The position numbers were made by a program, and so were the translations under genes. Below the pieces are notes generated by a model. The model worked only from the letters and a program-made list of their open reading frames with translations. It searched no databases and was not told the DNA's origin. From Balanoglossus misakiensis (Eukaryota > Animalia > Hemichordata): a stretch of 64,000 nt of DNA. Positions 1 to 63,871 of this stretch are shown here, one piece after another. The first letter of the stretch is position 1. Each line of letters opens with the position of its first letter. The DNA is taken from assembly GCA_040954595.2 (NCBI GenBank), contig CM082590.2, forward strand, positions 186,001-250,000, written 5' to 3'.

Positions 1-99
1 CTCCCAAATAAACAACTATACAAACACACGTTAATCCGAATCCCCGGTCTTTCTGTCTTTACTTTAATACAAGAGTATTTGATATTTTGATATCAACAG

Positions 100-1448
100 A
101 TACCAACCACCACAGCTGGCGATTTCCAACCTGTACTGGAAGGGCTGGTTGCTTTTACTTGTTGTTTCAGCATTTAACCCGGCAAACATTGGTAAGTTTC
201 AACTATGGACTCACATTCAATCAAATTCAATGTTCATTGCTAAGACATCATTCTGTAGATAGTGTCGCATCTTGTTTTCAAAATCACAGAAATGATTTGA
301 TTTCTCTCTTTCAGGCCACAAAGCATGGGAGGAGTATCCGATGTTGAAGTGTATGATGGAAATGTGTATGACAAAGTGAGTGCCTTATTATGTATATGGA
401 ACTTTGAGGGTGTCAGGGATTGTACTCAAAGAACTTGACTTAGAATTCAGTATAAATACATGTAGACGTGTCCCTGTCTGTATACAGACAAGACTTCACT
501 TGTCATATCATTTGCATTTATCCCTTTATTGATTTAGCTTGCCAAAATGGAGAAACAAGATATCTTGGAGTTTGAAAGTCATTTGGCAGCAGCCTCCACT
601 CATATGCATATTGATGAGAGCACTAGTTTGTTGCTGGCTCAGTTAACAGGAATGGATCCACAGTAAGTTTGACTTTTTATTCAGTCAACATGCGCCCAGA
701 TAAACGATTTCACGTCTAGAAATTGGAACCTAGCACATCATAAGACCTAATTCTGTATTCTGTGGATTTTTGGACTACAGCTGGAAATTCTTGAGCGATC
801 GCAATCTGAACATACTGAAAAGCGTACAATCCGTTGGCTATACAATTTTAACGCTGTACTGCAGTAGTGGGCCGATGATGTGATTTTAATCTACGAGTTT
901 CAAGTCTTGTGAAATAATGTGGCCTCACATATCTATAACCCAACAAAATTGCATCTGATTTTGATATTACATGACGCTCTGTTGAGATAGTCCACTGATT
1001 CAGCACATTCTCAAAAATAGTTCTGGGCACACAGTGAAAATCTGTTTCTGTATTTTCACCAGTGAAAATACAAGCTCATATCTTCACCGTTAGAACAATA
1101 GCACAGTGGCAAATGCAGGCGTTGCATGTATGATAAATTGACAGTCTTAGGACCATCAAAAGAGCATTTATGCACAGGGACTGTTTTGAAAGCAATGGTT
1201 CAAACAGACTTTAAAAATAAGTACCAACACATGAACACAGCTGGAATATACTGGGTCTCCAAACCCCCATTGTGGCAACCGGAATGTCTGATACCTGTCC
1301 TTGATTTCTTCCTCACAGTGGTGTTGCAAGAAGACTGCCCTCACAGGTCATGGAACAGTTGAAGAATCTCAACCAAACCTTGAAGATCGGTCATTTGCTG
1401 TGCAGAAGCTGAGGACCAGACTTCCTCCTGGATGTCATCCAACGTCAG
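100..1448 (+). pseudogene. INTS1: INTS1 four-exon fragment, unit 1 (exons 100-191, 315-375, 538-662, 1319-1448)
   Basis: AG/GT-bounded exons translate to YQPPQLAISNLYWKGWLLLLVVSAFNPANIG / HKAWEEYPMLKCMMEMCMT / LAKMEKQDILEFESHLAAASTHMHIDESTSLLLAQLTGMDP / GVARRLPSQVMEQLKNLNQTLKIGHLLCRS*GPDFLLDVIQRQ. These match recalled human INTS1 YQPPNLAISTLYWKAW..AWEEYPTLKMLMEM..EKQEILAFEGHLAAAST..LGHLLCRSRNPDFLLHIIQRQ. There is a TGA at 1410-1412 and one intervening exon is absent. Confidence 0.92.
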
Positions 1449-1505
1449 GTAAAAATGTCAGCTTACAGCTGTTGAAAGCCAAAGACTCAAATTGAGCATT
1501 GTGGC

Positions 1506-1826
1506 TTTTTAGGTCCCATTGGGACCTTATAGGATTGGTTGCATCTGTATCTATCTATGTATGGATGTATGTCTGTCCGTCCGTCCACATCAAAAACGTG
1601 AAAACCACTGTGCATATCACCTCAATATTTTTATTTTGAGTCAACTGACCAATATTCAAATGTTGACAGAAATATTTTCCGATTACCAACTTCCTGAGAT
1701 AGAAAATCACTCAAGTTTACAGACGTACATAATAAACGATATGCAGCCTTTAAATCCTATCATTCGGTATTTTGAGAAATTACAAAATAAAAGTTGATCC
1801 AACAATTTTAGAATGGGTGCAATATC
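1506..1826 (+). mobile_element. Truncated HINE/DINE-1-like (Helentron-associated) element remnant, present in every unit
   Basis: A T-run is followed by the palindrome AGGTCCCA-T-TGGGACCT (1511-1527) and a TATC/TATG/GTCC microsatellite (about 1545-1586). This is the usual 5' layout of these elements. No 3' end was found and the right boundary is approximate. Confidence 0.5.
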
Positions 1827-2103
1827 GTGTCTACAAACATTACGTCCAATCCAAATGTTCAGCAAATTTTGCATTTGACACATTCAAAATAGTGGACTGC
1901 CTTTGCTTCCTTCCATATTTTATGCACAGCGTATAATCAGACTTTAGTTTTGTCCTGTCTTTTCACCCATTATTTGTTCTCTTTTCCTGATCTCCGACAG
2001 AGACTATGGTTGCCACCATCTTGTCCGTTGTTAGGACAGCATACTGCCTTATGGCACTGACTATATACAATTATTGTAACCATAGTCTCTGGTTTGGCAC
2101 ATG
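1827..2103 (+). repeat. Truncated, diverged second copy of the MITE at 2750-3072 (every unit)
   Basis: Colinear similarity to 2787-3050, e.g. tacaaacatt..tccaatcca, gtggactgcctt.gcttccttccata, ccatcttgtc.gttgttaggacagca, agtctctggtt.ggcacatg. It stops inside the right TIR. Confidence 0.8.
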
Positions 2104-2271
2104 GTAAATTTTATCAAAATTATTGCTGCGGGCCCTACATTTCCTTTGCAAAAGAATTAAAACTGCATTGTATAGCAAACGAAAATTCTGTAACTTCCCA
2201 AATCCTGATCTCAGGGTTTCAACATTTCTTGGAATTTCTTGAGTTTGTAAAATTTGCTGGAAAGTACTTGA

Positions 2272-2328
2272 TTGTCCTACAAAATTGAAATTTGTCCTAC
2301 AAAATTGAAATTTATCCTACAAAATTGA
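2272..2328 (+). repeat. 20-bp minisatellite, about 3 copies (2 copies in the last unit)
   Basis: ttgtcctacaaaattgaaat repeated about three times. The terminal unit (about 61342-61378) has one fewer copy. Confidence 0.9.
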
Positions 2329-2749
2329 TTTACCACCTGTGCTGTCTTAAAATGTCACTTGTCATAGAAAGCTTTATCAATTACTTCTGGAGAACAGCAT
2401 TGCTGATTTTAAAAACTTGAAAACTGGTGAGAAAATTCTTGTAAACTTCTGGAATTTTATGTTTGTGAACTACTGGTATGTAACTACAATAACAGGTTTC
2501 TTTCCTTGGGATCAGCTCACTCCATAACAATATGTTTTTGTTTTGTTTTTTTACATCAGAAACTGATGTCTTACAGACTTTCCATGAACAGGTTTCTGTC
2601 ATTCAAAGAGTTTCTGTTTGGTGGCTGCACACCATAGTACCAACAATGTTTAAAGTCAACACCAGCGACTACGTACGCAGGTAACAATTCAAGTTTGAGT
2701 TCAAAGCACTTGGAAAACATGGTTTGGTTGTACGTTGGTGAAGTTTCAA

Positions 2750-3072
2750 AGGCCGAGGATTGTCTTATGCACATGTGCCTAATTTTGTGTATACAAACAT
2801 TGCATCCAATCCATATGTTCTTCAAATTTTGCATTCAAAATGTGGACTGCCTTCGCTTCCTTCCATAATTCATGCACACCGTACAAGTAGACTTAAGTTT
2901 TGTCCCTTCTTTTCACCCAATTTGCTGTCTTTTCCCGATCTCTGACATAGAATATGTCGCCGCCATCTTGTCTGTTGTTAGGACAGCACACTGCCTTGTG
3001 GCATTGACTGTGTACATTTTTTGTAATCAGAGTCTCTGGTTCGGCACATGTGCATTAGATGATTGTCGCCCT
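2750..3072. mobile_element. Old Kolobok-like MITE, 323 bp (every full unit)
   Basis: Imperfect TIRs of about 30 bp: AGGCCGAGGATTGTCTTATGCACATGTGCC versus the reverse complement AGGGCGACAATCATCTAATGCACATGTGCC. Flanks are TCAA and TTAA. A TTAA TSD with AGG..CCT termini fits Kolobok. Confidence 0.6.
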
Positions 3073-3550
3073 TTAAACCCCGGTGAGGGGTATAAAAGAC
3101 CCCCCAAATCAGTGGCGAACCTTAATGCCATTTGACTGACAACAGACAACACCAACGATCTTGGCTCTATGAAAATCGGCCCAAACAGGTCCAAGCATAA
3201 AGAATTACACCACACAACGACAGAAGTTGGCTTTATAAACACACACAGCATAAAGTTATCGACGAAAAATACACGAGCTTTTGAAACAACGATGATTTTG
3301 GGAGAAATCTGGTTTCAGTGCTTTTCAGAAGCGTCCCTGGGAAACAATAACCACGCCATTCAAACAGCTGTCAATCGCATAGAGGTGTAAAGTGTTCAAT
3401 TATTTTCTATGTACATGAGATCAATTACACAGTCATTATGCACGACGACCACTCCCAAATAAACAACTATACAAACACACGTTAATCCGAATCCCCGGTC
3501 TTTCTGTCTTTACTTTAATACAAGAGTATTTGATATTTTGATATCAACAG

Positions 3551-4899
3551 ATACCAACCACCACAGCTGGCGATTTCCAACCTGTACTGGAAGGGCTGGT
3601 TGCTTTTACTTGTTGTTTCAGCATTTAACCCGGCAAACATTGGTAAGTTTCAACTATGGACTCACATTCAATCAAATTCAATGTTCATTGCTAAGACATC
3701 ATTCTGTAGATAGTGTCACATCTTGTTTTCAAAATCACAGAAATGATTTGATTTCTCTCTTTCAGGCCACAAAGCATGGGAGGAGTATCCGATGTTGAAG
3801 TGTATGATGGAAATGTGTATGACAAAGTGAGTGCCTTATTATGTATATGGAACTTTGAGGGTGTCAGGGATTGTACTCAAAGAACTTGACTTAGAATTCA
3901 GTATAAATACATGTAGACGTGTCCCTGTCTGTATACAGACAAGACTTCACTTGTCATATCATTTGCATTTATCCCTTTATTGATTTAGCTTGCCAAAATG
4001 GAGAAACAAGATATCTTGGAGTTTGAAAGTCATTTGGCAGCAGCCTCCACTCATATGCATATTGATGAGAGCACTAGTTTGTTGCTGGCTCAGTTAACAG
4101 GAATGGATCCACAGTAAGTTTGACTTTTTATTCAGTCAACATGCGCCCAGATAAACGATTTCACGTCTAGAAATTGGAACCTAGCACATCATAAGACCTA
4201 ATTCTGTATTCTGTGGATTTTTGGACTACAGCTGGAAATTCTTGAGCGATCGCAATCTGAACATACTGAAAAGCGTACAATCCGTTGGCTATACAATTTT
4301 AACGCTGTACTGCAGTAGTGGGCCGATGATGTGATTTTAATCTACGAGTTTCAAGTCTTGTGAAATAATGTGGCCTCACATATCTATAACCCAACAAAAT
4401 TGCATCTGATTTTGATATTACATGACGCTCTGTTGAGATAGTCCACTGATTCAGCACATTCTCAAAAATAGTTCTGGGCACACAGTGAAAATCTGTTTCT
4501 GTATTTTCACCAGTGAAAATACAAGCTCATATCTTCACCGTTAGAACAATAGCACAGTGGCAAATGCAGGCGTTGCATGTATGATAAATTGACAGTCTTA
4601 GGACCATCAAAAGAGCATTTATGCACAGGGACTGTTTTGAAAGCAATGGTTCAAACAGACTTTAAAAATAAGTACCAACACATGAACACAGCTGGAATAT
4701 ACTGGGTCTCCAAACCCCCATTGTGGCAACCGGAATGTCTGATACCTGTCCTTGATTTCTTCCTCACAGTGGTGTTGCAAGAAGACTGCCCTCACAGGTC
4801 ATGGAACAGTTGAAGAATCTCAACCAAACCTTGAAGATCGGTCATTTGCTGTGCAGAAGCTGAGGACCAGACTTCCTCCTGGATGTCATCCAACGTCAG
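3551..4899 (+). pseudogene. INTS1: INTS1 four-exon fragment, unit 2
   Basis: Same exons, splice sites and TGA as unit 1. Confidence 0.9.
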
Positions 4900-7001
4900 G
4901 TAAAAATGTCAGCTTACAGCTGTTGAAAGCCAAAGACTCAAATTGAGCATTGTGGCTTTTTAGGTCCCATTGGGACCTTATAGGATTGGTTGCATCTGTA
5001 TCTATCTATGTATGGATGTATGTCTGTCCGTCCGTCCACATCAAAAACGTGAAAACCACTGTGCATATCACCTCAATATTTTTATTTTGAGTCAACTGAC
5101 CAATATTCAAATGTTGACAGAAATATTTTCCGATTACCAACTTCCTGAGATAGAAAATCACTCAAGTTTACAGACGTACATAATAAACGATATGCAGCCT
5201 TTAAATCCTATCATTCGGTATTTTGAGAAATTACAAAATAAAAGTTGATCCAACAATTTTAGAATGGGTGCAATATCGTGTCTACAAACATTACGTCCAA
5301 TCCAAATGTTCAGCAAATTTTGCATTTGACACATTCAAAATAGTGGACTGCCTTTGCTTCCTTCCATATTTTATGCACAGCGTATAATCAGACTTTAGTT
5401 TTGTCCTGTCTTTTCACCCATTATTTGTTCTCTTTTCCTGATCTCCGACAGAGACTATGGTTGCCACCATCTTGTCCGTTGTTAGGACAGCATACTGCCT
5501 TATGGCACTGACTATATACAATTATTGTAACCATAGTCTCTGGTTTGGCACATGGTAAATTTTATCAAAATTATTGCTGCGGGCCCTACATTTCCTTTGC
5601 AAAAGAATTAAAACTGCATTGTATAGCAAACGAAAATTCTGTAACTTCCCAAATCCTGATCTCAGGGTTTCAACATTTCTTGGAATTTCTTGAGTTTGTA
5701 AAATTTGCTGGAAAGTACTTGATTGTCCTACAAAATTGAAATTTGTCCTACAAAATTGAAATTTATCCTACAAAATTGATTTACCACCTGTGCTGTCTTA
5801 AAATGTCACTTGTCATAGAAAGCTTTATCAATTACTTCTGGAGAACAGCATTGCTGATTTTAAAAACTTGAAAACTGGTGAGAAAATTCTTGTAAACTTC
5901 TGGAATTTTATGTTTGTGAACTACTGGTATGTAACTACAATAACAGGTTTCTTTCCTTGGGATCAGCTCACTCCATAACAATATGTTTTTGTTTTGTTTT
6001 TTTACATCAGAAACTGAAGTCTTACAGACTTTCCATGAACAGGTTTCTGTCATTCAAAGAGTTTCTGTTTGGTGGCTGCACACCATAGTACCAACAATGT
6101 TTAAAGTCAACACCAGCGACTACGTACGCAGGTAACAATTCAAGTTTGAGTTCAAAGCACTTGGAAAACATGGTTTGGTTGTACGTTGGTGAAGTTTCAA
6201 AGGCCGAGGATTGTCTTATGCACATGTGCCTAATTTCGTGTATACAAACATTGCATCCAATCCATATGTTCTTCAAATTTTGCATTCAAAATGTGGACTG
6301 CCTTCGCTTCCTTCCATAATTCATGCACACCGTACAAGTAGACTTAAGTTTTGTCCCTTCTTTTCACCCAATTTGCTGTCTTTTCCCGATCTCTGACATA
6401 GAATATGTCGCCGCCATCTTGTCTGTTGTTAGGACAGCACACTGCCTTGTGGCATTGACTGTGTACATTTTTTGTAATCAGAGTCTCTGGTTCGGCACAT
6501 GTGCATTAGATGATTGTCGCCCTTTAAACCCCGGTGAGGGGTATAAAAGACCCCCCAAATCAGTGGCGAACCTTAATGCCATTTGACTGACAACAGACAA
6601 CACCAACGATCTTGGCTCTATGAAAATCGGCCCAAACAGGTCCAAGCATAAAGAATTACACCACACAACGACAGAAGTTGGCTTTATAAACACACACAGC
6701 ATAAAGTTATCGACGAAAAATACACGAGCTTTTGAAACAACGATGATTTTGGGAGAAATCTGGTTTCAGTGCTTTTCAGAAGCGTCCCTGGGAAACAATA
6801 ACCACGCCATTCAAACAGCTGTCAATCGCATAGAGGTGTAAAGTGTTCAATTATTTTCTATGTACATGAGATCAATTACACAGTCATTATGCACGACGAC
6901 CACTCCCAAATAAACAACTATACAAACACACGTTAATCCGAATCCCCGGTCTTTCTGTCTTTACTTTAATACAAGAGTATTTGATATTTTGATATCAACA
7001 G

Positions 7002-8350
7002 ATACCAACCACCACAGCTGGCGATTTCCAACCTGTACTGGAAGGGCTGGTTGCTTTTACTTGTTGTTTCAGCATTTAACCCGGCAAACATTGGTAAGTT
7101 TCAACTATGGACTCACATTCAATCAAATTCAATGTTCATTGCTAAGACATCATTCTGTAGATAGTGTCACATCTTGTTTTCAAAATCACAGAAATGATTT
7201 GATTTCTCTCTTTCAGGCCACAAAGCATGGGAGGAGTATCCGATGTTGAAGTGTATGATGGAAATGTGTATGACAAAGTGAGTGCCTTATTATGTATATG
7301 GAACTTTGAGGGTGTCAGGGATTGTACTCAAAGAACTTGACTTAGAATTCAGTATAAATACATGTAGACGTGTCCCTGTCTGTATACAGACAAGACTTCA
7401 CTTGTCATATCATTTGCATTTATCCCTTTATTGATTTAGCTTGCCAAAATGGAGAAACAAGATATCTTGGAGTTTGAAAGTCATTTGGCAGCAGCCTCCA
7501 CTCACATGCATATTGATGAGAGCACTAGTTTGTTGCTGGCTCAGTTAACAGGAATGGATCCACAGTAAGTTTGACTTTTTATTCAGTCAACATGCGCCCA
7601 GATAAACGATTTCACGTCTAGAAATTGGAACCTAGCACATCATAAGACCTAATTCTGTATTCTGTGGATTTTTGGACTACAGCTGGAAATTCTTGAGCGA
7701 TCGCAATCTGAACATACTGAAAAGCGTACAATCCGTTGGCTATACAATTTTAACGCTGTACTGCAGTAGTGGGCCGATGATGTGATTTTAATCTACGAGT
7801 TTCAAGTCTTGTGAAATAATGTGGCCTCACATATCTATAACCCAACAAAATTGCATCTGATTTTGATATTACATGACGCTCTGTTGAGATAGTCCACTGA
7901 TTCAGCACATTCTCAAAAATAGTTCTGGGCACACAGTGAAAATCTGTTTCTGTATTTTCACCAGTGAAAATACAAGCTCATATCTTCACCGTTAGAACAA
8001 TAGCACAGTGGCAAATGCAGGCGTTGCATGTATGATAAATTGACAGTCTTAGGACCATCAAAAGAGCATTTATGCACAGGGACTGTTTTGAAAGCAATGG
8101 TTCAAACAGACTTTAAAAATAAGTACCAACACATGAACACAGCTGGAATATACTGGGTTTCCAAACCCCCATTGTGGCAACCGGAATGTCTGATACCTGT
8201 CCTTGATTTCTTCCTCACAGTGGTGTTGCAAGAAGACTGCCCTCACAGGTCATGGAACAGTTGAAGAATCTCAACCAAACCTTGAAGATCGGTCATTTGC
8301 TGTGCAGAAGCTGAGGACCAGACTTCCTCCTGGATGTCATCCAACGTCAG
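7002..8350 (+). pseudogene. INTS1: INTS1 four-exon fragment, unit 3
   Basis: Same exons, splice sites and TGA as unit 1. Confidence 0.9.
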
Positions 8351-10454
8351 GTAAAAATGTCAGCTTACAGCTGTTGAAAGCCAAAGACTCAAATTGAGCA
8401 TTCTGGCTTTTTAGGTCCCATTGGGACCTTATAGGATTGGTTGCATCTGTATCTATCTATGTATGGATGTATGTCTGTCCGTCCGTCCACATCAAAAACG
8501 TGAAAACCACTGTGCATATCACCTCAATATTTTTATTTTGAGTAAACTGACCAATATTCAAATGTTGACAGAAATATTTTCCGATTACCAACTTCCTGAG
8601 ATAGAAAATCACTCAAGTTTACAGACGTACATAATAAACGATATGCAGCCTTTAAATCCTATCATTCGGTATTTTGAGAAATTACAAAATAAAAGTTGAT
8701 CCAACAATTTTAGAATGGGTGCAATATCGTGTCTACAAACATTACGTCCAATCCAAATGTTCAGCAAATTTTGCATTTGACACATTCAAAATAGTGGACT
8801 GCCTTTGCTTCCTTCCATATTTTATGCACAGCGTATAATCAGACTTTAGTTTTGTCCTGTCTTTTCACCCATTATTTGTTCTCTTTTCCTGATCTCCGAC
8901 AGAGACTATGGTTGCCACCATCTTGTCCGTTGTTAGGACAGCATACTGCCTTATGGCACTGACTATATACAATTATTGTAACCATAGTCTCTGGTTTGGC
9001 ACATGGTAAATTTTATCAAAATTATTGCTGCGGGCCCTACATTTCCTTTGCAAAAGAATTAAAACTGCATTGTATAGCAAACGAAAATTCTGTAACTTCC
9101 CAAATCCTGATCTCAGGGTTTCAACATTTCTTGGAATTTCTTGAGTTTGTAAAATTTGCTGGAAAGTACTTGATTGTCCTACAAAATTGAAATTTGTCCT
9201 ACAAAATTGAAATTTATCCTACAAAATTGATTTACCACCTGTGCTGTCTTAAAATGTCACTTGTCATAGAAAGCTTTATCAATTACTTCTGGAGAACAGC
9301 ATTGCTGATTTTAAAAACTTGAAAACTGGTGAGAAAATTCTTGTAAACTTCTGGAATTTTATGTTTGTGAACTACTGGTATGTAACTACAATAACAGGTT
9401 TCTTTCCTTGGGATCAGCTCACTCCATAACAATATGTTTTTGTTTTGTTTTTTTACATCAGAAACTGAAGTCTTACAGACTTTCCATGAACAGGTTTCTG
9501 TCATTCAAAGAGTTTCTGTTTGGTGGCTGCACACCATAGTACCAACAATGTTTAAAGTCAACACCAGCGACTACGTACGCAGGTAACAATTCAAGTTTGA
9601 GTTCAAAGCACTTGGAAAACATGGTTTGGTTGTACGTTGGTGAAGTTTCAAAGGCCGAGGATTGTCTTATGCACATGTGCCTAATTTCGTGTATACAAAC
9701 ATTGCATCCAATCCATATGTTCTTCAAATTTTGCATTCAAAATGTGGACTGCCTTCGCTTCCTTCCATAATTCATGCACACCGTACAAGTAGACTTAAGT
9801 TTTGTCCCTTCTTTTCACCCAATTTGCTGTCTTTTCCCGATCTCTGACATAGAATATGTCGCCGCCATCTTGTCTGTTGTTAGGACAGCACACTGCCTTG
9901 TGGCATTGACTGTGTACATTTTTTGTAATCAGAGTCTCTGGTTCGGCACATGTGCATTAGATGATTGTCGCCCTTTAAACCCCGGTGAGGGGTATAAAAG
10001 ACCCCCCAAATCAGTGGCGAACCTTAATGCCATTTGACTGACAACAGACAACACCAACGATCTTGGCTCTATGAAAATCGGCCCAAACAGGTCCAAGCAT
10101 AAAGAATTACACCACACAACGACAGAAGTTGGCTTTATAAACACACACACAGCATAAAGTTATCGACGAAAAATACACGAGCTTTTGAAACAACGATGAT
10201 TTTGGGAGAAATCTGGTTTCAGTGCTTTTCAGAAGCGTCCCTGGGAAACAATAACCACGCCATTCAAACAGCTGTCAATCGCATAGAGGTGTAAAGTGTT
10301 CAATTATTTTCTATGTACATGAGATCAATTACACAGTCATTATGCACGACGACCACTCCCAAATAAACAACTATACAAACACACGTTAATCCGAATCCCC
10401 GGTCTTTCTGTCTTTACTTTAATACAAGAGTATTTGATATTTTGATATCAACAG

Positions 10455-11803
10455 ATACCAACCACCACAGCTGGCGATTTCCAACCTGTACTGGAAGGGC
10501 TGGTTGCTTTTACTTGTTGTTTCAGCATTTAACCCGGCAAACATTGGTAAGTTTCAACTATGGACTCACATTCAATCAAATTCAATGTTCATTGCTAAGA
10601 CATCATTCTGTAGATAGTGTCACATCTTGTTTTCAAAATCACAGAAATGATTTGATTTCTCTCTTTCAGGCCACAAAGTATGGGAGGAGTATCCGATGTT
10701 GAAGTGTATGATGGAAATGTGTATGACAAAGTGAGTGCCTTATTATGTATATGGAACTTTGAGGGTGTCAGGGATTGTACTCAAAGAACTTGACTTAGAA
10801 TTCAGTATAAATACATGTAGACGTGTCCCTGTCTGTATACAGACAAGACTTCACTTGTCATATCATTTGCATTTATCCCTTTATTGATTTAGCTTGCCAA
10901 AATGGAGAAACAAGATATCTTGGAGTTTGAAAGTCATTTGGCAGCAGCCTCCACTCATATGCATATTGATGAGAGCACTAGTTTGTTGCTGGCTCAGTTA
11001 ACAGGAATGGATCCACAGTAAGTTTGACTTTTTATTCAGTCAACATGCGCCCAGATAAACGATTTCACGTCTAGAAATTGGAACCTAGCACATCATAAGA
11101 CCTAATTCTGTATTCTGTGGATTTTTGGACTACAGCTGGAAATTCTTGAGCGATCGCAATCTGAACATACTGAAAAGCGTACAATCCGTTGGCTATACAA
11201 TTTTAACGCTGTACTGCAGTAGTGGGCCGATGATGTGATTTTAATCTACGAGTTTCAAGTCTTGTGAAATAATGTGGCCTCACATATCTATAACCCAACA
11301 AAATTGCATCTGATTTTGATATTACATGACGCTCTGTTGAGATAGTCCACTGATTCAGCACATTCTCAAAAATAGTTCTGGGCACACAGTGAAAAACTGT
11401 TTCTATATTTTCACCAGTGAAAATACAAGCTCATATCTTCACCGTTAGAACAATAGCACAGTGGCAAATGCAGGCGTTGCATGTATGATAAATTGACAGT
11501 CTTAGGACCATCAAAAGAGCATTTATGCACAGGGACTGTTTTGAAAGCAATGGTTCAAACAGACTTTAAAAATAAGTACCAACACATGAACACAGCTGGA
11601 ATATACTGGGTTTCCAAACCCCCATTGTGGCAACCGGAATGTCTGATACCTGTCCTTGATTTCTTCCTCACAGTGGTGTTGCAAGAAGACTGCCCTCACA
11701 GGTCATGGAACAGTTGAAGAATCTCAACCAAACCTTGAAGATCGGTCATTTGCTGTGCAGAAGCTGAGGACCAGACTTCCTCCTGGATGTCATCCAACGT
11801 CAG
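10455..11803 (+). pseudogene. INTS1: INTS1 four-exon fragment, unit 4
   Basis: Same exons, splice sites and TGA as unit 1. Confidence 0.9.
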
Positions 11804-52740: not shown

Positions 52741-54705
52741 GTAAAAATGTCAGCTTACAGCTGTTGAAAGCCAAAGACTCAAATTGAGCATTGTGGCTTT
52801 TTAGGTCCCATTGGGACCTTATAGGATTGGTTGCATCTGTATCTATCTATGTATGGATGTATGTCTGTCCGTCCGTCCACATCAAAAACGTGAAAACCAC
52901 TGTGCATATCACCTCAATATTTTTATTTTGAGTCAACTGACCAATATTCAAATGTTGACAGAAATATTTTCCGATTACCAACTTCCTGAGATAGAAAATC
53001 ACTCAAGTTTACAGACGTACATAATAAACGATATGCAGCCTTTAAATCCTATCATTCGGTATTTTGAGAAATTACAAAATAAAAGTTGATCCAACAATTT
53101 TAGAATGGGTGCAATATCGTGTGTACAAACATTACGTCCAATCCAAATGTTCAGCAAATTTTGCATTTGACACATTCAAAATAGTGGACTGCCTTTGCTT
53201 CCTTCCATATTTTATGCACAGCGTATAATCAGACTTTAGTTTTGTCCTGTCTTTTCACCCATTATTTGTTCTCTTTTCCTGATCTCCGACAGAGACTATG
53301 GTTGCCACCATCTTGTCCGTTGTTAGGACAGCATACTGCCTTATGGCACTGACTATATACAATTATTGTAACCATAGTCTCTGGTTTGGCACATGGTAAA
53401 TTTTATCAAAATTATTGCTGCGGGCCCTACATTTCCTTTGCAAAAGAATTAAAACTGCATTGTATAGCAAACGAAAATTCTGTAACTTCCCAAATCCTGA
53501 TCTCAGGGTTTCAACATTTCTTGGAATTTCTTGAGTTTGTAAAATTTGCTGGAAAGTACTTGATTGTCCTACAAAATTGAAATTTGTCCTACAAAATTGA
53601 AATTTATCCTACAAAATTGATTTACCACCTGTGCTGTCTTAAAATGTCACTTGTCATAGAAAGCTTTATCAATTACTTCTGGAGAACAGCATTGCTGATT
53701 TTAAAAACTTGAAAACTGGTGAGAAAATTCTTGTAAACTTCTGGAATTTTATGTTTGTGAACTACTGGTATGTAACTACAATAACAGGTTTCTTTCCTTG
53801 GGATCAGCTCACTCCATAACAATATGTTTTTGTTTTGTTTTTTTACATCAGAAACTGAAGTCTTACAGACTTTCCATGAACAGGTTTCTGTCATTCAAAG
53901 AGTTTCTGTTTGGTGGCTGCACACCATAGTACCAACAATGTTTAAAGTCAACACCAGCGACTACGTACGCAGGTAACAATTCAAGTTTGAGTTCAAAGCA
54001 CTTGGAAAACATGGTTTGGTTGTACGTTGGTGAAGTTTCAAAGGCCGAGGATTGTCTTATGCACATGTGCCTAATTTCGTGTATACAAACATTGCATCCA
54101 ATCCATATGTTCTTCAAATTTTGCATTCAAAATGTGGACTGCCTTCGCTTCCTTCCATAATTCATGCACACCGTACAAGTAGACTTAAGTTTTGTCCCTT
54201 CTTTTCACCCAATTTGCTGTCTTTTCCCGATCTCTGACATAGAATATGTCGCCGCCATCTTGTCTGTTGTTAGGACAGCACACTGCCTTGTGGCATTGAC
54301 TGTGTACATTTTTTGTAATCAGAGTCTCTGGTTCGGCACATGTGCATTAGATGATTGTCGCCCTTTAAACCCCGGTGAGGGGTATAAAAGACCCCCCAAA
54401 TCAGTGGCGAACCTTAATGCCATTTGACTGACAACAGACAACACCAACGATCTTGGCTCTATGAAAATCGGCCCAAACAGGTCCAAGCATAAAGAATTAC
54501 ACCACACAACGACAGAAGTTGGCTTTATAAACACACACAGCATAAAGTTATCGACGAAAAATACACGAGCTTTTGAAACAACGATGATTTTGGGAGAAAT
54601 CTGGTTTCAGTGCTTTTCAGAAGCGTCCCTGGGAAACAATAACCACGCCATTCAAACAGCTGTCAATCGCATAGAGGTGTAAAGTGTTCAATTATTTTCT
54701 ATGTA

Positions 54706-55579
54706 CAGTGAAACCTGGCAAAACCGACCTCACCTCGGACCACACATTCTGGTCGGTTTTCACAGTGGGTCGGTTTACTCAGAGTGGGCGTGGCTTCCTC
54801 CTCCCCATGAACCCTTTGACCCCGATCTCATACACACAGTGCACAGCAGACACACGCACGATATGTACACGTTGTACATTCATGTATATTTCAAATAAAA
54901 GGTAATTAAAAAACTTCTGTACAGTGTAATTTCTGAAAATTGTTGAAAATAAAAAAGTAAATTCAAGTTCGTTCGCGTGCTGAGTGGGTAAACAGGAAGA
55001 CGTACACGGTATTGTTACGATCGCATCAGCAGAATGTCGGGCAATTGATTTCCTGGAAACTACTGATAAGTTGTCGTAAACATCATCCAGTCTATTTTTT
55101 CTTCATAAAATTGTCGAGAGATGATTGTTTTAGGAAACATCGCTTCTGCAGTACTGTTTGATGCCGCCCTTGTCAACACTGCGTGGCCGCACTGTTGGTT
55201 GTACACTGTATTGTTTACAAAAAGAGATTCACACCTCGCCACCGGGAAGGCTTATCAGTAAATTGCTAACGAAGTGTTGACAAACCGTCGCTTTGACTAT
55301 TGTTGGGAAGACAGGAAAACCAAAATTAGCACATCGTTGCGGTAATTTTTGATCAAAGACATGATTTCAACCTTTACAATAAAGTGATCGGTCGGTCTAT
55401 TCAGGTTGAATTTGAGGGGTGGGACCGACCAACACGGTCGGTGTTCGAAGTAGACAGTGGTCGGTATTCAGAGTGACTTTTACCATTGGCGTCAATGGGA
55501 AATTTTCGGGACTAAACAGATCGGTCGATTTTCACAGGAAGTCGGTTTACCCAGGGGTCGGTTTTGCCAGGTTTCACTG
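54706..55579. mobile_element. pogo/Tigger-like MITE, 874 bp
   Basis: TA TSD at the empty site atgTAcatg. Perfect 24-bp TIR CAGTGAAACCTGGCAAAACCGACC and repeated subterminal GGTCGG motifs. No transposase ORF. Confidence 0.9.
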
Positions 55580-55718
55580 TACATGAGATCAATTACACAG
55601 TCATTATGCACGACGACCACTCCCAAATAAACAACTATACAAACACACGTTAATCCGAATCCCCGGTCTTTCTGTCTTTACTTTAATACAAGAGTATTTG
55701 ATATTTTGATATCAACAG

Positions 55719-57067
55719 ATACCAACCACCACAGCTGGCGATTTCCAACCTGTACTGGAAGGGCTGGTTGCTTTTACTTGTTGTTTCAGCATTAAACCCG
55801 GCAAACATTGGTAAGTTTCAACTATGGACTCACATTCAATCAAATTCAATGTTCATTGCTAAGACATCATTCTGTAGATAGTGTCACATCTTGTTTTCAA
55901 AATCACAGAAATGATTTGATTTCTCTCTTTCAGGCCACAAAGCATGGGAGGAGTATCCGATGTTGAAGTGTATGATGGAAATGTGTATGACAAAGTGAGT
56001 GCCTTATTATGTATATGGAACTTTGAGGGTGTCAGGGATTGTACTCAAAGAACTTGACTTAGAATTCAGTATAAATACATGTAGACGTGTCCCTGTCTGT
56101 ATACAGACAAGACTTCACTTGTCATATCATTTGCATTTATCCCTTTATTGATTTAGCTTGCCAAAATGGAGAAACAAGATATCTTGGAGTTTGAAAGTCA
56201 TTTGGCAGCAGCCTCCACTCATATGCATATTGATGAGAGCACTAGTTTGTTGCTGGCTCAGTTAACAGGAATGGATCCACAGTAAGTTTGACTTTTAATT
56301 CAGTCAACATGCGCCCAGATAAACGATTTCACGTCTAGAAATTGGAACCTAGCACATCATAAGACCTAATTCTGTATTCTGTGGATTTTTGGACTACAGC
56401 TGGAAATTCTTGAGCGATCGCAATCTGAACATACTGAAAAGCGTACAATCCGTTGGCTATACAATTTTAACGCTGTACTGCAGTAGTGGGCCGATGATGT
56501 GATTTTAATCTACGAGTTTCAAGTCTTGTGAAATAATGTGGCCTCACATATCTATAACCCAACAAAATTGCATCTGATTTTGATATTACATGACGCTCTG
56601 TTGAGATAGTCCACTGATTCAGCACATTCTCAAAAATAGTTCTGGGCACACAGTGAAAATCTGTTTCTGTATTTTCACCAGTGAAAATACAAGCTCATAT
56701 CTTCACCGTTAGAACAATAGCACAGTGGCAAATGCAGGCGTTGCATGTATGATAAATTGACAGTCTTAGGACCATCAAAAGAGCATTTATGCACAGGGAC
56801 TGTTTTGAAAGCAATGGTTCAAACAGACTTTAAAAATAAGTACCAACACATGAACACAGCTGGAATATACTGGGTTTTCAAACCCCCATTGTGGCAACCG
56901 GAATGTCTGATACCTGTCCTTGATTTCTTCCTCACAGTGGTGTTGCAAGAAGACTGCCCTCACAGGTCATGGAACAGTTGAAGAATCTCAACCAAACCTT
57001 GCAGATCGGTCATTTGCTGTGCAGAAGCTGAGGACCAGACTTCCTCCTGGATGTCATCCAACGTCAG
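55719..57067 (+). pseudogene. INTS1: INTS1 four-exon fragment, unit 15
   Basis: Same exons and TGA. A TTT>TTA change in the first exon is shared with unit 16. Confidence 0.9.
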
Positions 57068-59169
57068 GTAAAAATGTCAGCTTACAGCTGTTGAAAGCCA
57101 AAGACTCAAATTGAGCATTGTGGCTTTTTAGGTCCCATTGGGACCTTATAGGATTGGTTGCATCTGTATCTATCTATGTATGGATGTATGTCTGTCCGTC
57201 CGTCCACATCAAAAACGTGAAAACCACTGTGCATATCACCTCAATATTTTTATTTTGAGTCAACTGACCAATATTCAAATGTTGACAGAAATATTTTCCG
57301 ATTACCAACTTCCTGAGATAGAAAATCACTCAAGTTTACAGACGTACATAATAAACGATATGCAGCCTTTAAATCCTATCATTCGGTATTTTGAGAAATT
57401 ACAAAATAAAAGTTGATCCAACAATTTTAGAATGGGTGCAATATCGTGTGTACAAACATTACGTCCAATCCAAATGTTCAGCAAATTTTGCATTTGACAC
57501 ATTCAAAATAGTGGACTGCCTTTGCTTCCTTCCATATTTTATGCACAGCGTATAATCAGACTTTAGTTTTGTCCTGTCTTTTCACCCATTATTTGTTCTC
57601 TTTTCCTGATCTCCGACAGAGACTATGGTTGCCACCATCTTGTCCGTTGTTAGGACAGCATACTGCCTTATGGCACTGACTATATACAATTATTGTAACC
57701 ATAGTCTCTGGTTTGGCACATGGTAAATTTTATCAAAATTATTGCTGCGGGCCCTACATTTCCTTTGCAAAAGAATTAAAACTGCATTGTATAGCAAACG
57801 AAAATTCTGTAACTTCCCAAATCCTGATCTCAGGGTTTCAACATTTCTTGGAATTTCTTGAGTTTGTAAAATTTGCTGGAAAGTACTTGATTGTCCTACA
57901 AAATTGAAATTTGTCCTACAAAATTGAAATTTATCCTACAAAATTGATTTACCACCTGTGCTGTCTTAAAATGTCACTTGTCATAGAAAGCTTTATCAAT
58001 TACTTCTGGAGAACAGCTTTGCTGATTTTAAAAACTTGAAAACTGGTGAGAAAATTCTTGTAAACTTCTGGAATTTTATGTTTGTGAACTACTGGTATGT
58101 AACTACAATAACAGGTTTCTTTCCTTGGGATCAGCTCACTCCATAACAATATGTTTTTGTTTTGTTTTTTTACATCAGAAACTGAAGTCTTACAGACTTT
58201 CCATGAACAGGTTTCTGTCATTCAAAGAGTTTCTGTTTGGTGGCTGCACACCATAGTACCAAGAATGTTTAAAGTCAACACCAGCGACTACGTACGCAGG
58301 TAACAATTCAAGTTTGAGTTCAAAGCACTTGGAAAACATGGTTTGGTTGTACGTTGGTGAAGTTTCAAAGGCCGAGGATTGTCTTATGCACATGTGCCTA
58401 ATTTCGTGTATACAAACATTGCATCCAATCCATATGTTCTTCAAATTTTGCATTCAAAATGTGGACTGCCTTCGCTTCCTTCCATAATTCATGCACACCG
58501 TACAAGTAGACTTAAGTTTTGTCCCTTCTTTTCACCCAATTTGCTGTCTTTTCCCGATCTCTGACATAGAATATGTCGCCGCCATCTTGTCTGTTGTTAG
58601 GACAGCACACTGCCTTGTGGCATTGACTGTGTACATTTTTTGTAATCAGAGTCTCTGGTTCGGCACATGTGCATTAGATGATTGTCGCCCTTTAAACCCC
58701 GGTGAGGGGTATAAAAGACCCCCCAAATCAGTGGCGAACCTTAATGCCATTTGACTGACAACAGACAACACCAACGATCTTGGCTCTATGAAAATCGGCC
58801 CAAACAGGTCCAAGCATAAAGAATTACACCACACAACGACAGAAGTTGGCTTTATAAACACACACAGCATAAAGTTATCGACGAAAAATACACGAGCTTT
58901 TGAAACAACGATGATTTTGGGAGAAATCTGGTTTCAGTGCTTTTCAGAAGCGTCCCTGGGAAACAATAACCACGCCATTCAAACAGCTGTCAATCGCATA
59001 GAGGTGTAAAGTGTTCAATTATTTTCTATGTACATGAGATCAATTACACAGTCATTATGCACGACGACCACTCCCAAATAAACAACTATACAAACACACG
59101 TTAATCCGAATCCCCGGTCTTTCTGTCTTTACTTTAATACAAGAGTATTTGATATTTTGATATCAACAG

Positions 59170-60518
59170 ATACCAACCACCACAGCTGGCGATTTCCAAC
59201 CTGTACTGGAAGGGCTGGTTGCTTTTACTTGTTGTTTCAGCATTAAACCCGGCAAACATTGGTAAGTTTCAACTATGGACTCACATTCAATCAAATTCAA
59301 TGTTCATTGCTAAGACATCATTCTGTAGATAGTGTCACATCTTGTTTTCAAAATCACAGAAATGATTTGATTTCTCTCTTTCAGGCCACAAAGCATGGGA
59401 GGAGTATCCGATGTTAAAGTGTATGATGGAAATGTGTATGACAAAGTGAGTGCCTTATTATGTATATGGAACTTTGAGGGTGTCAGGGATTGTACTCAAA
59501 GAACTTGACTTAGAATTCAGTATAAATACATGTAGACGTGTCCCTGTCTGTATACAGACAAGACTTCACTTGTCATATCATTTGCATTTATCCCTTTATT
59601 GATTTAGCTTGCCAAAATGGAGAAACAAGATATCTTGGAGTTTGAAAGTCATTTGGCAGCAGCCTCCACTCATATGCATATTGATGAGAGCACTAGTTTG
59701 TTGCTGGCTCAGTTAACAGGAATGGATCCACAGTAAGTTTGACTTTTTATTCAGTCAACATGCGCCCAGATAAACGATTTCACGTCTAGAAATTGGAACC
59801 TAGCACATCATAAGACCTAATTCTGTATTCTGTGGATTTTTGGACTACAGCTGGAAATTCTTGAGCGATCGCAATCTGAACATACTGAAAAGCGTACAAT
59901 CCGTTGGCTATACAATTTTAACGCTGTACTGCAGTAGTGGGCCGATGATGTGATTTTAATCTACGAGTTTCAAGTCTTGTGAAATAATGTGGCCTCACAT
60001 ATCTATAACCCAACAAAATTGCATCTGATTTTGATATTACATGACGCTCTGTTGAGATAGTCCACTGATTCAGCACATTCTCAAAAATAGTTCTGGGCAC
60101 ACAGTGAAAATCTGTTTCTGTATTTTCACCAGTGAAAATACAAGCTCATATCTTCACCGTTAGAACAATAGCACAGTGGCAAATGCAGGCGTTGCATGTA
60201 TGATAAATTGACAGTCTTAGGACCATCAAAAGAGCATTTATGCACAGGGACTGTTTTGAAAGCAATGGTTCAAACAGACTTTAAAAATAAGTACCAACAC
60301 ATGAACACAGCTGGAATATACTGGGTTTTCAAACCCCCATTGTGGCAACCGGAATGTCTGATACCTGTCCTTGATTTCTTCCTCACAGTGGTGTTGCAAG
60401 AAGACTGCCCTCACAGGTCATGGAACAGTTGAAGAATCTCAACCAAACCTTGAAGATCGGTCATTTGCTGTGCAGAAGCTGAGGACCAGACTTCCTCCTG
60501 GATGTCATCCAACGTCAG
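59170..60518 (+). pseudogene. INTS1: INTS1 four-exon fragment, unit 16 (terminal partial unit)
   Basis: All four exons are present and the TGA is retained. Confidence 0.9.
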
Positions 60519-61675
60519 GTAAAAATGTCAGCTTACAGCTGTTGAAAGCCAAAGACTCAAATTGAGCATTGTGGCTTTTTAGGTCCCATTGGGACCTTAT
60601 AGGATTGGTTGCATCTGTATCTATCTATGTATGGATGTATGTCTGTCCGTCCGTCCACATCAAAAACGTGAAAACCACTGTGCATATCACCTCAATATTT
60701 TTATTTTGAGTCAACTGACCAATATTCAAATGTTGACAGAAATATTTTCCGATTACCAACTTCCTGAGATAGAAAATCACTCAAGTTTACAGACGTACAT
60801 AATAAACGATATGCAGCCTTTAAATCCTATCATTCGGTATTTTGAGAAATTGCAAAATAAAAGTTGATCCAACAATTTTAGAATGGGTGCAATATCGTGT
60901 GTACAAACATTACGTCCAATCCAAATGTTCAGCAAATTTTGCATTTGACACATTCAAAAAAGTGGACTGCCTTTGCTTCCTTCCATATTTTATGCACAGC
61001 GTATAATCAGACTTTAGTTTTGTCCTGTCTTTTCACCCATTATTTGTTCTCTTTTCCTGATCTCCGACAGAGACTATGGTTGCCACCATCTTGTCCGTTG
61101 TTAGGACAGCATACTGCCTTATGGCACTGACTATATACAATTATTGTAACCATAGTCTCTGGTTTGGCACATGGTAAATTTTATCAAAATTATTGCTGCG
61201 GGCCCTACATTTCCTTTGCAAAAGAATTAAAACTGCATTGTATAGCAAACGAAAATTCTGTAACTTCCCAAATCCTGATCTTAGGGTTTCAACATTTCTT
61301 GGAATTTCTTGAGTTTGTAAAATTTGCTGGAAAGTACTTGATTGTCCTACAAAATTGAAATTTGTCCTACAAAATTGATTTACCACCTGTGCTGTCTTAA
61401 AATGTCACTTGTCATAGAAAGCTTTATCAATTACTTCTGGAGAACAGCATTGCTGATTTTAAAAACTTGAAAACTGGTGAGAAAATTCTTGTAAACTTCT
61501 GATATTTTATGTTTGTGAACTACTGGTATGTAACTACAATAACATGTTTGTATCCTTGGGATCAGCTCACTCCATAACAATATGTTTTTGTTTTGTTTTT
61601 TACATCAGAAACTGAAGTCTTACAGACTTTCCATAAACAGGTTTCTGTCATTCAAAGAGATTCCGTTTGGTGGCT

Positions 61676-62164
61676 TCTCGCATAAACATCGAAAATGGGT
61701 CTTAACGCAAGCAATCAGGTAGATTTTAGCTCAAATTGCTAGCGACTGGAGTACTCGAGGCCAGTGACGAAGATCGAAGCACGTTTTGAGTTCGAAATCG
61801 GCAGTTTTTGGTAAGGAGACCCTTCCGATACAAATCCGCGAAGTTTCGCCAGTTTTGTTTATGGAGCTTTGCAGGGCTGTGGGTGGAGGGCTCGCGGTAA
61901 CAACACAGCCCAGCCACGCAGAGCTAGCTCCGACGCTGATTTTATTTTTAGTGCCCAAAACGTACAAGTTGCAACATTTTGAGTTGCAAAGTCGCATGCA
62001 AATACACTTTTATTTACGTAGATCAGGTCGTGTCCGGCCGTTGCTGTAGCGAGGTCAGTTCAAAGCAAGCGCTCAGAGAGCGCTCAGAGTGCGTCACTGA
62101 TGACTCTATACAAAATGTAAAAATGTGCGTCAAATGACGCAAAAACAGTCTGGCGGCAACACTG
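61676..62164. mobile_element. Possible one-ended remnant of a DNA transposon (hAT-like terminus) abutting the array end
   Basis: CpG-rich block ending in GGCGGCAACACTG, the reverse complement of CAGTGTTGCC, a common hAT-type terminus. No partner TIR or TSD is visible. Confidence 0.3.
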
Positions 62165-62354
62165 CATTTTGTCTATGCATGTTTGTGCTTCTGTCATTGC
62201 TAGTTCCAGCATCTACTACGTACAGAATGTTGAAGTAATTAGGGTGTAAAATGGTTTTCATGTTACATGCTAATTATTGATTAATAGCATGATTTTCCTG
62301 GTAAGTTGGCCAACCGAGACTGACTTCTAGAGAACCATGTGATTATTACCACAG

Positions 62355-62459
62355 GCTTGCCAGATGGAAACAGAGCCACTCACCATCAGTGCGTACATCA
62401 TGTTCCTCTCCAAATATTCTTCGACCAATCAGCTTCATGAAATGGCCGACCTTGCATTG
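62355..62459 (+). CDS. INTS1: INTS1 exon (single copy, open frame)
   Basis: acag|...|gtaaga, 105 nt: ACQMETEPLTISAYIMFLSKYSSTNQLHEMADLAL versus recalled human AIHMETDPQTISAYLIYLSQH...SDLAL. Confidence 0.88.
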
Positions 62460-62880
62460 GTAAGATGATGATTTGTGTATTTCCAGTATGAGTCGTGGAG
62501 ACCTCTGGTAGAAACAAATAAAGACATATGATTGTGAAACATACATACAGGTTCTGGGTGAGGGCTACACACAAATAGTATTAGAACAAAAACAGTTGAA
62601 AATGCAAAAGTCTGTGATCTATATATCAAACAGTATTTTCATTGGAGTATGTGCAAAAAAAAAGAGTAAGTTTATATAGAAAGTTCTAAGCATGAACCAA
62701 GTGATTTTTATTTGAATATGCTTCAATTTTCCTTTTGCATGCATAATTTTTGTGTCATTTCTACCTTAGCACAAATGATGGTGGTTGGTTTGCAGCTCAC
62801 AAATGATTATGTGTGTTGTTATTGTTGTTGTTTTGACAAACATATTTGATTTTACTTCACTGCTACCTTTCTGATTCTAG

Positions 62881-63042
62881 GATTTAGCTCAGTTGATTGT
62901 AGAAAGGCCCACCATACTCAGCTCCATGCTGTGCAGAGACACCAGTGCCGACCAGACCAACACTACACTGACATCCATGTTACATATATTCTACAATTAC
63001 TTTAAGAAAGCCACACAGCCCCATGCGGAATCTTACTCATGG
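62881..63042 (+). CDS. INTS1: INTS1 exon (single copy, open frame)
   Basis: ttctag|...|gtgagt, 162 nt: DLAQLIVERPTILSSML...HAESYSW versus recalled human DVARLVVERSTIMSHL...EVYSW. In phase with both neighbours. Confidence 0.88.
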
Positions 63043-63759
63043 GTGAGTGTCAATCAATTACTTCCAGAGCAGGTCTTCAAATCTCGTTCAACTTCTAGTT
63101 CATTGTCTTGCAAATTGTTCATGGTTCACATTTGTTGCCATGCAGTGTTTTATAAAAGTGACATGAAAAGGTAAAAAAATATATAATAATCTGTCTGTTA
63201 GCAGTTTCTCTGTCATTCTTTCATTGTGTCACTACATGTACAAAAGTTGAGACGAAAACCAGTTTTATTCTGTCGTGCCACCCACAGTCGGATTTCGTGA
63301 TATTGTCAGATTTCATGATAAAACAAGAAAAAAAAAACATTTAATAAGAGTTACATGTATAACCACTGTAACAGTAGTAAGTTTTTATTGCTGACCACTA
63401 TATGAAGCAGCAACATAATTGAGCTCAGCATGGAGATCTCAGAATGGCAGAAAAGTCAATTTTTGTAGCCAATTGAATTTCAAATTTATTCTGTGCCGAC
63501 TTTCAGCTTAATCAAGTATGACCTTAATATGGCTTCAATGTTTTCCCAAATTTTAATATAGAATGCTCCACTGTCCAGTGTTCATCCCCATTCAATGTAT
63601 ACATTGTATAGATCCAACCATACTATTGAAAATAATTGGACTGGACCAAAATATGCGGGTGAAATGTTAAAGTTCAACATACCTAATGACCAGTCGCAGA
63701 CATATTATTAGTTGTATTTTTGGTGTAACTGATAGTGAAATGGCCATCTTCTCCCACAG

Positions 63760-63871
63760 TCTGACACTGAAGACCAAGTGTTCATCCAATGGCAGAGTGG
63801 TGAAGTGGCCACCATGCATATCTTAGTGGTACACGCTATGGTCATTCTGCTAACCTTTGGAAAACCTCCAC
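63760..63871 (+). CDS. INTS1: INTS1 exon (single copy, open frame)
   Basis: cccacag|...|gtatgt, 112 nt: SDTEDQVFIQWQSGEVATMHILVVHAMVILLTFGKPP versus recalled human SESQDQVFLRWSSGETATMHILVVHAMVILLTLGPP. Confidence 0.92.

What the first reader, a model, noticed from the sequence alone, without database searches (positions are those of the whole stretch)
1..63871. A macrosatellite built from INTS1 exons, directly upstream of intact INTS1 exons
Seen: at least 16 tandem copies of four spliceable INTS1-like exons, followed within 700 bp of the array end by three single-copy, open, in-phase INTS1 exons on the same strand. Known: INTS1 is a large scaffold subunit of Integrator (snRNA 3' processing, Pol II promoter-proximal termination) and is normally single copy. 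Inference: either a >60-kb array of the gene's own pseudo-exons sits inside an intron of the live gene, or a duplicated INTS1 pseudogene seeded a satellite. A gene-derived macrosatellite at its parent locus is unusual in either case, and ORF finders do not see it.
Basis: partly seen in the sequence, partly recalled or inferred. Interest (0 to 1): 0.82.

Follow-up and report, generated by a model that had tools for sequence, protein, structure and literature searches.

The report
Satellite grown from dead INTS1 exons
In a likely acorn-worm genome, a 3.45-kb piece of DNA holding five exons of the essential gene INTS1, one with a stop codon in every copy, is repeated head to tail at least 16 times; it is most likely a dead duplicate of the gene that grew into a satellite, not an array inside the working gene.

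Summary
The array is real: 16 head-to-tail units of 3,451 bp, 99.8% identical, from the left edge to 61675, interrupted by five DNA-transposon insertions. Each unit has five INTS1 exons, not four. All splice sites are intact, but exon D has a TGA in 16 of 16 copies, coding blocks are missing and the joins are out of frame. The three downstream exons are open and in phase. Two of them are not single-copy in the genome: read contigs show high-depth paralogues, with a 4-bp frameshift in G, and the only spliced contig found comes from those paralogues. Best reading (0.78): an unprocessed, deletion-riddled duplicate of mid-INTS1 amplified by unequal exchange. The live-intron model (0.12) is not excluded, because no genome was held and no INTS1 mRNA was seen. 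It would require skipping 80 intact decoy exons in an essential gene. Gene-derived macrosatellites are a known kind; this scan noted similar cases for other genes (TRAPPC9, TCR), none for INTS1.

The parts
1..61675 (+). Tandem array (macrosatellite) of a 3,451-bp unit, 16 units in the window, open at the left edge
   Evidence: mean 7.1 differences between 9 plain units, 99.8% identity; head-to-tail joint 61675->58246 also in contigs of runs X1 and X4
35627..39077 (+). One plain unit (unit 10), order A-B-C-D-E
58179..58299 (+). Pseudo-exon E, last full copy (P. flava 511-549, human about 573-609); 15 full copies; D527V at a column invariant in 25 of 25 outgroups
59170..59261 (+). Pseudo-exon A, last copy (P. 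flava 662-691, human 723-752); 16 copies
59385..59445 (+). Pseudo-exon B, last copy (P. flava 693-711); 16 copies; ends in phase 2
59608..59732 (+). Pseudo-exon C, last copy (P. flava 738-778, human 799-838); 16 copies; starts in phase 0, so out of frame with B
60389..60518 (+). Pseudo-exon D, last copy (P. flava 780-822); in-frame TGA at 60480-60482 in place of an Arg invariant in 25 of 25 outgroups; stop in 16 of 16 copies
61609..61675 (+). Truncated terminal copy of exon E; keeps ancestral K519 and D527 that the array copies have lost; the array ends inside it
61676..62354 (+). Junction spacer: dispersed repeat (about 61700-62085), then low-copy intron sequence before F; no Pfam hit in six frames
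62355..62459 (+). INTS1 exon F (P. flava 1009-1043; PF22929 84-118), open; high-depth paralogues exist
62881..63042 (+). INTS1 exon G (P. flava 1044-1097; PF22929 119-174), open here; the high-depth paralogue has a 4-bp insertion behind 62963
63760..63871 (+). INTS1 exon H (P. flava 1098-1134, human 1144-1179), open, low depth; Q1101E at a column invariant in 25 of 25 outgroups
21229..22487 (.). Insertion in unit 7, TA duplication, imperfect terminal inverted repeats (non-autonomous DNA transposon)
27258..28520 (.). Insertion in unit 8, CCC...GGG ends, 2-bp duplication
31307..33255 (+). Tc1/mariner-like element in unit 9: 359-bp terminal inverted repeats, TA duplication, paired-box/HTH_32 reading frame
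40160..42107 (+). Same element at the same site in unit 11 (99.8% identical): one insertion copied with its unit
54706..55579 (.). Insertion in unit 14, terminal inverted repeats, TA duplication (MITE-like)

Best explanation
The window holds a homogeneous macrosatellite whose unit is five INTS1 exons with their introns, and the whole stretch, the three exons after it included, is likely a dead segmental duplicate of the middle of INTS1, with the working gene predicted to lie elsewhere. Shown: unit, copy number, lesions, missing coding blocks, transposon insertions, high-depth F/G paralogues. Inferred order of events: (1) The middle of INTS1 was duplicated as DNA, with introns kept. (2) The copy lost the exons for P. 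flava residues about 550-661 and 712-737 and gained the TGA. (3) The E-to-D segment duplicated in tandem, possibly by exchange between two copies of a 280-bp dispersed repeat that flank exon E in the unit. (4) Unequal exchange and conversion expanded and homogenised it, copying even a transposon insertion from unit 9 to unit 11. (5) A further deletion joined the middle of the last exon E to the intron before F. It encodes no protein and is most likely neutral; other pieces of the same gene (F-G, G) were amplified separately, and one family is spliced into a frameshifted RNA.
For: TGA in 16 of 16 D copies; first stop after 126 codons in the INTS1 frame; spliced unit 529 nt. Within-array exon variants are 7 non-synonymous to 3 synonymous: pN/pS 0.61, P=0.44 against neutrality, P=0.007 against omega 0.1. 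Exon order follows the protein (E<A<B<C<D, then F<G<H) with gaps of about 111, 25 and 186 residues, and about 476 from the truncated E to F: serial deletion in one decaying copy. All 80 acceptors and 79 donors in the array are canonical, so a live pre-mRNA would carry 80 unweakened, frame-breaking decoys. INTS1 loss is lethal in mouse and zebrafish (PMC12714693, passages). Mid-INTS1 has been duplicated in this genome regardless of this locus: run X1 depth is 1458 on the F intron and 3529-3663 on G, against 198 on the neighbouring unique contig. That 198 is itself 3 to 9 times the 23-74 of the small residual contigs and about 3-4 times the 50-65 of most listed dispersed-repeat contigs, which hints at more than one locus with this F flank. 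The ancestral allele at 61635 has the same residual depth, 197. The window's G has Phe1084 where the paralogue (63003 T>G), P. flava and Glandiceps all have Leu, a change private to this copy. The spliced F-G contig carries the paralogue's letters, not the window's.
Against: F, G and H have no stop, frameshift or broken splice site. Protein-level rate tests do not separate them from a live gene: window-private against P. flava-private changes are 6 to 5 in F-H and 8 to 6 in the array. The test has no power, since even the dead array exons pass it. An intact INTS1 elsewhere was not shown (no genome held). Contig depth is not a copy number, and the single-copy baseline of X1 was not measured; if 198 is the single-copy level, F's flank occurs once. 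H and its flank are low-depth (346 in the last bin).
Confidence: 0.78

Rival explanations
1. Live-intron model: an intragenic tandem duplication decayed and expanded, so the working INTS1 pre-mRNA runs through more than 61 kb of its own pseudo-exons and splices from an exon left of the array directly to F at 62355.
For: F, G and H are open, in phase and contiguous on PF22929. H and the F flank are low-depth. The unique contig 61866-62369 has no differences and no second allele laid at 62086-62277. Partial exon duplicates beside functional genes and very long introns are known on Drosophila Y chromosomes (PMC8794474 and 10.1101/363101, passages).
Against: 80 decoy exons keep canonical, unweakened sites and break the frame, and nothing seen here explains how they would be skipped. 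F and G are not single-copy. The only spliced contig comes from a frameshifted paralogue. The window's G has a private L1084F and H a Q1101E at an invariant column (weak, since P. flava has changes of that kind too).
Confidence: 0.12
2. Broken allele of the only INTS1 locus: the assembled haplotype carries the array and is a null, while the other haplotype of this animal has a normal gene.
For: If depth 198 is the two-haplotype level, the array depth of 1640-1700 equals about 17 units in all, close to the 16 seen on this one haplotype.
Against: The array would then have to end within about one unit of the window's left edge. Fixed lesions, four independent transposon insertions and a 1.5% diverged edge unit imply long persistence, which is unlikely for a recessive-lethal allele. 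Small residual contigs at depth 23-74 suggest a lower baseline.
Confidence: 0.06
3. Transposon capture: a Helitron or Pack-type element picked up INTS1 fragments, and the array and the F-G/G families are its copies.
For: Several INTS1 fragments are amplified separately and the introns of the unit are rich in dispersed repeats (depth up to 97,000 in X1). Capture with loss of intervening exons is typical of such elements (recalled, not tested).
Against: No Pfam transposase or helicase hit in six frames of a unit or of the junction spacer (0 of 12 translations). A crude scan for a Helitron 3' end found only one 6-bp-stem candidate among 25 CTRRT sites in the unit and one among 22 in the flank. 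No terminal repeats bound the unit.
Confidence: 0.04

Closest known systems
INTS1 (Integrator complex subunit 1; P. flava XP_070581337.1, human PDB 7CUN chain A; Pfam PF22929), the parent gene
   Same: All 8 exons align in protein order, 151 of 172 residues identical for the last array set and 112 of 126 for F-H against P. flava; introns kept.
   Different: Only residues 511-549, 662-711, 738-822 and 1009-1134 of 2125 are present in the window; fixed stop, frame breaks, 16-fold tandem repetition.
Human composite macrosatellites/megasatellites with captured exons (Hoyt et al. preprint 10.1101/2021.07.12.451456, passages)
   Same: Kilobase unit made of transposon pieces, simple repeats and exonic sequence, tandemly arrayed, near 100% identity within an array, attributed to unequal crossing over.
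   Different: There the units with protein-coding annotation are discussed as gene-family copies; here the unit is an internal, disabled five-exon fragment of a single-copy housekeeping gene, still joined in order to further exons of that gene.
Drosophila PCKR, Su(Ste) and SCLR repeats (10.1101/363101 and PMC8794474, passages)
   Same: Tandem, homogenised, pseudogenised copies of a single-copy parent gene, with transposons among them.
   Different: Those are sex-chromosome copies of a short testis gene, and Su(Ste) makes piRNAs against Stellate; no small-RNA role or sex linkage was tested here, and the unit is a gene fragment.
Partial exon duplicates of Drosophila Y-linked kl-2 and ORY (PMC8794474, passages)
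   Same: Subsets of exons duplicated several times next to other exons of the same gene; some are transcribed.
   Different: There they lie mostly at the periphery of a functional copy; a regular 16-unit array with intact sites inside the transcribed path is not described in the passages read.

Membership tests
Composite macrosatellite | Kilobase unit in a head-to-tail array | tested here: met
   3,451-bp unit, 16 copies; joint seen in read contigs
Composite macrosatellite | Unit built of several repeat types, with or without captured exons | tested here: met
   dispersed-repeat blocks at very high depth, 20-bp tandem repeat, 280-bp repeat twice per unit, five exons
Composite macrosatellite | Concerted evolution / unequal exchange | tested here: met
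   99.8% identity, variants shared by non-adjacent units, one insertion in units 9 and 11, diverged edge unit
Unprocessed (duplicated) pseudogene | Introns retained | tested here: met
   GT-AG introns between exons
Unprocessed (duplicated) pseudogene | Disabling lesions in the array exons | tested here: met
   TGA in 16 of 16 copies, missing coding blocks, phase clash
Unprocessed (duplicated) pseudogene | Disabling lesions or relaxed selection in F, G, H | tested here: inconclusive
   no lesion; 6 window-private against 5 P. flava-private changes in 126 sites
Unprocessed (duplicated) pseudogene | Intact parent locus elsewhere in the genome | not testable with these tools
   no genome held; depth only hints at it
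Live INTS1 gene with a giant repeat-filled intron | Downstream exons are the genome's only copy | tested here: not met
   F and G have high-depth paralogues; H is low-depth and undecided
Live INTS1 gene with a giant repeat-filled intron | mRNA splices across the array into 62355 and on to H | tested here: inconclusive
   the only spliced contig is from the frameshifted paralogue; no contig lies on H or on exons A-E in that small run
Live INTS1 gene with a giant repeat-filled intron | Intact exon series left of the array | not testable with these tools
   outside the window; no genome held
Su(Ste)-type small-RNA silencer array | Produces piRNA/siRNA against the parent gene | not testable with these tools
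   no small-RNA run of this organism listed
Helitron/Pack-element capture | Element termini or transposase around the captured exons | tested here: not met
   (crude tests)

The most novel reading that the evidence does not exclude
The array sits inside an intron of the working INTS1 gene. An essential gene would then be transcribed through more than 61 kb holding 80 of its own exons with intact splice sites and would skip them all, while separate amplified INTS1 fragments make a spliced, frameshifted RNA. This would be a natural, countable test bed for how the spliceosome ignores strong decoy exons, and possibly a repeat-length control of Integrator dosage.
Probability: 0.12. Interest if true: 0.75.

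Novelty: new member of a known kind. Interest (0 to 1): 0.3.

Why it matters
On the best reading it is a clean, young record of a macrosatellite being born from a housekeeping gene. The ancestral edge copy, the fixed lesions, the transposon insertions and their copying between units are all readable. It also shows that mid-INTS1 has seeded at least two or three separate repeat families in this genome, one of them spliced into RNA. In practice it will mislead INTS1 annotation and read mapping in this species. It becomes important only if the array proves to lie inside the live gene, or if the derived RNAs act on INTS1; neither is shown.

Tried and rejected
Whole-genome count of INTS1 loci: no genome held. 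RNA: no RNA holder listed. Two of the 18 listed RNA runs under the label 'organism B' were laid (X7, X11) and gave 0 and 1 reads, so they are no test. In X5 no contig lies on H or on exons A-E; the run is small (28 Mb), so this lack of cover is not used as evidence. X4 holds the same array consensus at depth 4-5 under another study and label, but may be carry-over of the same DNA, so it is not counted as independent. A homologue search with exon G alone found none of 14 candidates; the search with H worked. Conserved-column and relative-rate tests could not tell live from dead exons; the terminal-E rows were read in the wrong frame through my coordinate error and were redone. An Rfam scan of 51381-64000 gave one chance match (E 0.4), so no snRNA or other known RNA is in the unit. 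An exact DNA search with 33 bases of exon G in metagenome contigs gave 0 hits. Assembly artefact was rejected: units carry private variants and four different insertions with target-site duplications, and read contigs show the tandem joint at about 8 times flank depth. A repeat protein made from the array was rejected: the longest stop-free run in a virtually spliced concatemer is 182 codons. Literature: 7 searches. The search for INTS1 + pseudogene + tandem repeat gave 5 papers, none on such an array by title and abstract start; the library lacks most subscription journals, and no supplements were read.
Full report
Observation. Self-comparison gives a dominant period of 3,451 bp from the left edge to 61675. 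Cutting at exon A gives 16 units: ten of 3,451-3,453 bp, five lengthened by insertions and a truncated last one. Nine plain units differ by 7.1 bases on average (99.8% identity). Read-derived contigs of run X1 show the head-to-tail joint and a depth of 1640-1700 on the unit against 198 on the unique contig next to it, so the array is not an assembly loop.

Identity. Five of five exons searched against PDB sequences match human INTS1: E 573-609, A 723-752, C 799-838, D 841-869 (up to the stop) and H 1144-1179. F, G and H tile Pfam PF22929 without a gap; the four array exons given to Pfam had no hit. The best of 91 library hits for H is Ptychodera flava INTS1, and all eight exons align to it at 77-97% identity. 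The animal is therefore likely an acorn worm. tblastn of that protein finds no other INTS1 piece in the window.

Anatomy of the unit. Exon D has TGA at an Arg that is invariant in 25 of 25 outgroups, in 16 of 16 copies. B ends in phase 2 and C starts in phase 0; the spliced unit is 529 nt, and the INTS1 frame stops after 126 codons. Variants among copies are 7 non-synonymous and 3 synonymous, as expected without selection (P=0.44) and not for omega 0.1 (P=0.007). The array cannot encode a repeat protein.

History written in the array. Four independent DNA-transposon insertions with target-site duplications interrupt five units. One, a Tc1/mariner-like element with 359-bp inverted repeats and a paired-box/HTH frame, sits at the same site in units 9 and 11, so it was copied with its unit. 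Variants are shared by non-adjacent units. The last 820 bp differ from unit 10 at 12 substitutions and 2 indels, and the terminal half-exon E keeps K519 and D527 as in P. flava, where the array copies read E and V. The edge is thus the un-homogenised, ancestral-like copy. The array stops inside this exon and passes through 680 bp to F, skipping about 476 residues. Two copies of a 280-bp dispersed repeat flank exon E in each unit; exchange between such copies could have made the first tandem joint (inference, untested).

The downstream exons. F, G and H are open and in phase. They are single in the window, but F and G are not single in the genome. In X1 the F intron lies at depth 1458 with three small indels and an 85-bp skip; G lies at 3663 with a 4-bp insertion behind 62963 and 63003 T>G; and the intron after G lies at 3529 and leaves the window sequence at 63632, before H. 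These are 7, 18 and 18 times the flank depth. X4 has a 2,985-bp contig with the same frameshifted G. Run X5 (28 Mb; library not on record; judged RNA because it lacks the array's intronic DNA and has a spliced joint) holds one 971-nt contig that joins F to G by removing exactly the GT-AG intron. It carries the 4-bp insertion, 62934 C>T and 63003 T>G, has 89 nt before F that lie on no part of the unit, and has 609 nt after G that are not H. So a frameshifted INTS1 fragment family is likely transcribed and spliced, and that transcript is not from this copy. A processed DNA copy is not excluded.

Live or dead? Against the live-intron model: 80 intact, frame-breaking decoys in a gene whose loss is lethal in mouse and zebrafish (PMC12714693, passages); the pattern of serial deletions in colinear order; and independent duplication of mid-INTS1 in this genome. 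There is also a private L1084F in this G, where the paralogue and two hemichordates have Leu. Finally, the flank depth of 198, equal to that of the ancestral E allele (197), lies well above the 23-74 of small residual contigs, which hints at more than one locus. For the live-intron model: no lesion in 379 coding bases, low depth on H, and rate tests that show no excess change (6 against 5; but the dead array gives 8 against 6, so the test is blind). Depth is not a copy number and its baseline was not measured. No genome was held. I put the pseudogene reading at 0.78, live intron at 0.12, a null allele of the only locus at 0.06 and transposon capture at 0.04 (searches found no element ends or transposase).

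Comparison with what is known. Kilobase composite arrays that capture exons and evolve by unequal crossing over are described in the human T2T genome (10.1101/2021.07.12.451456, passages). Tandem pseudogene arrays from a single parent gene (PCKR, Su(Ste), SCLR) and partial exon duplicates beside kl-2 are described in Drosophila (10.1101/363101 and PMC8794474, passages). It meets the tested features of a composite macrosatellite, and the array meets those of an unprocessed pseudogene. A search for INTS1 with pseudogene and tandem repeat listed 5 papers, none on such an array by title and abstract start; a hemichordate repeat search listed 12, none on it. Earlier notes of this scan record the same kind for TRAPPC9 and a TCR segment (unchecked) and nothing at this place, for this sequence, or on an INTS1 array.

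Verdict. Real, correctly identified, a new member of a known kind; interest 0.30. The unusual points are the parent (a single-copy essential gene), the readable birth record, and the further INTS1-derived families, one of them spliced. The surprising reading, an array inside the live gene, remains possible at about 0.12 and is settled by one whole-assembly search.

Noticed in passing
window 62340-63632: A second and probably third INTS1-derived high-copy family (F+G and G-only) exist elsewhere in the genome, at depth equal to or twice the array's, with a 4-bp frameshift in G; a 2,985-bp contig in run X4 may be the unit of another array.
   Followed up: partly
window 62353-63042: A 971-nt contig in run X5 splices F to G and carries the frameshift: a likely transcribed INTS1 pseudogene RNA with unknown first 89 and last 609 nt.
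   Followed up: partly
window 31307-33255 and 40160-42107: Young Tc1/mariner-like element with 359-bp inverted repeats (99% identical) and a 178-codon paired-box/HTH frame; no catalytic domain hit in the three + frames scanned.
   Followed up: partly
window 27258-28520: 1.26-kb element with CCC...GGG ends, a 2-bp duplication and an internal 71-bp tandem repeat; resembles animal CACTA/EnSpm-type ends (recalled, not tested).
   Followed up: no
window 60852-61675: Edge unit escapes homogenisation (12 substitutions, 2 indels) and keeps ancestral residues; it has two copies of the 20-bp repeat where the other units have three.
   Followed up: yes
window 61676-62200: CpG-rich patch (observed/expected 1.1 against 0.5 in the unit) right at the array end, within a dispersed repeat.
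   Followed up: no
window 58400-58669 and 60891-61173: Two 82%-identical copies of a very abundant 280-bp dispersed repeat flank exon E in every unit; candidate site of the founding unequal exchange.
   Followed up: partly
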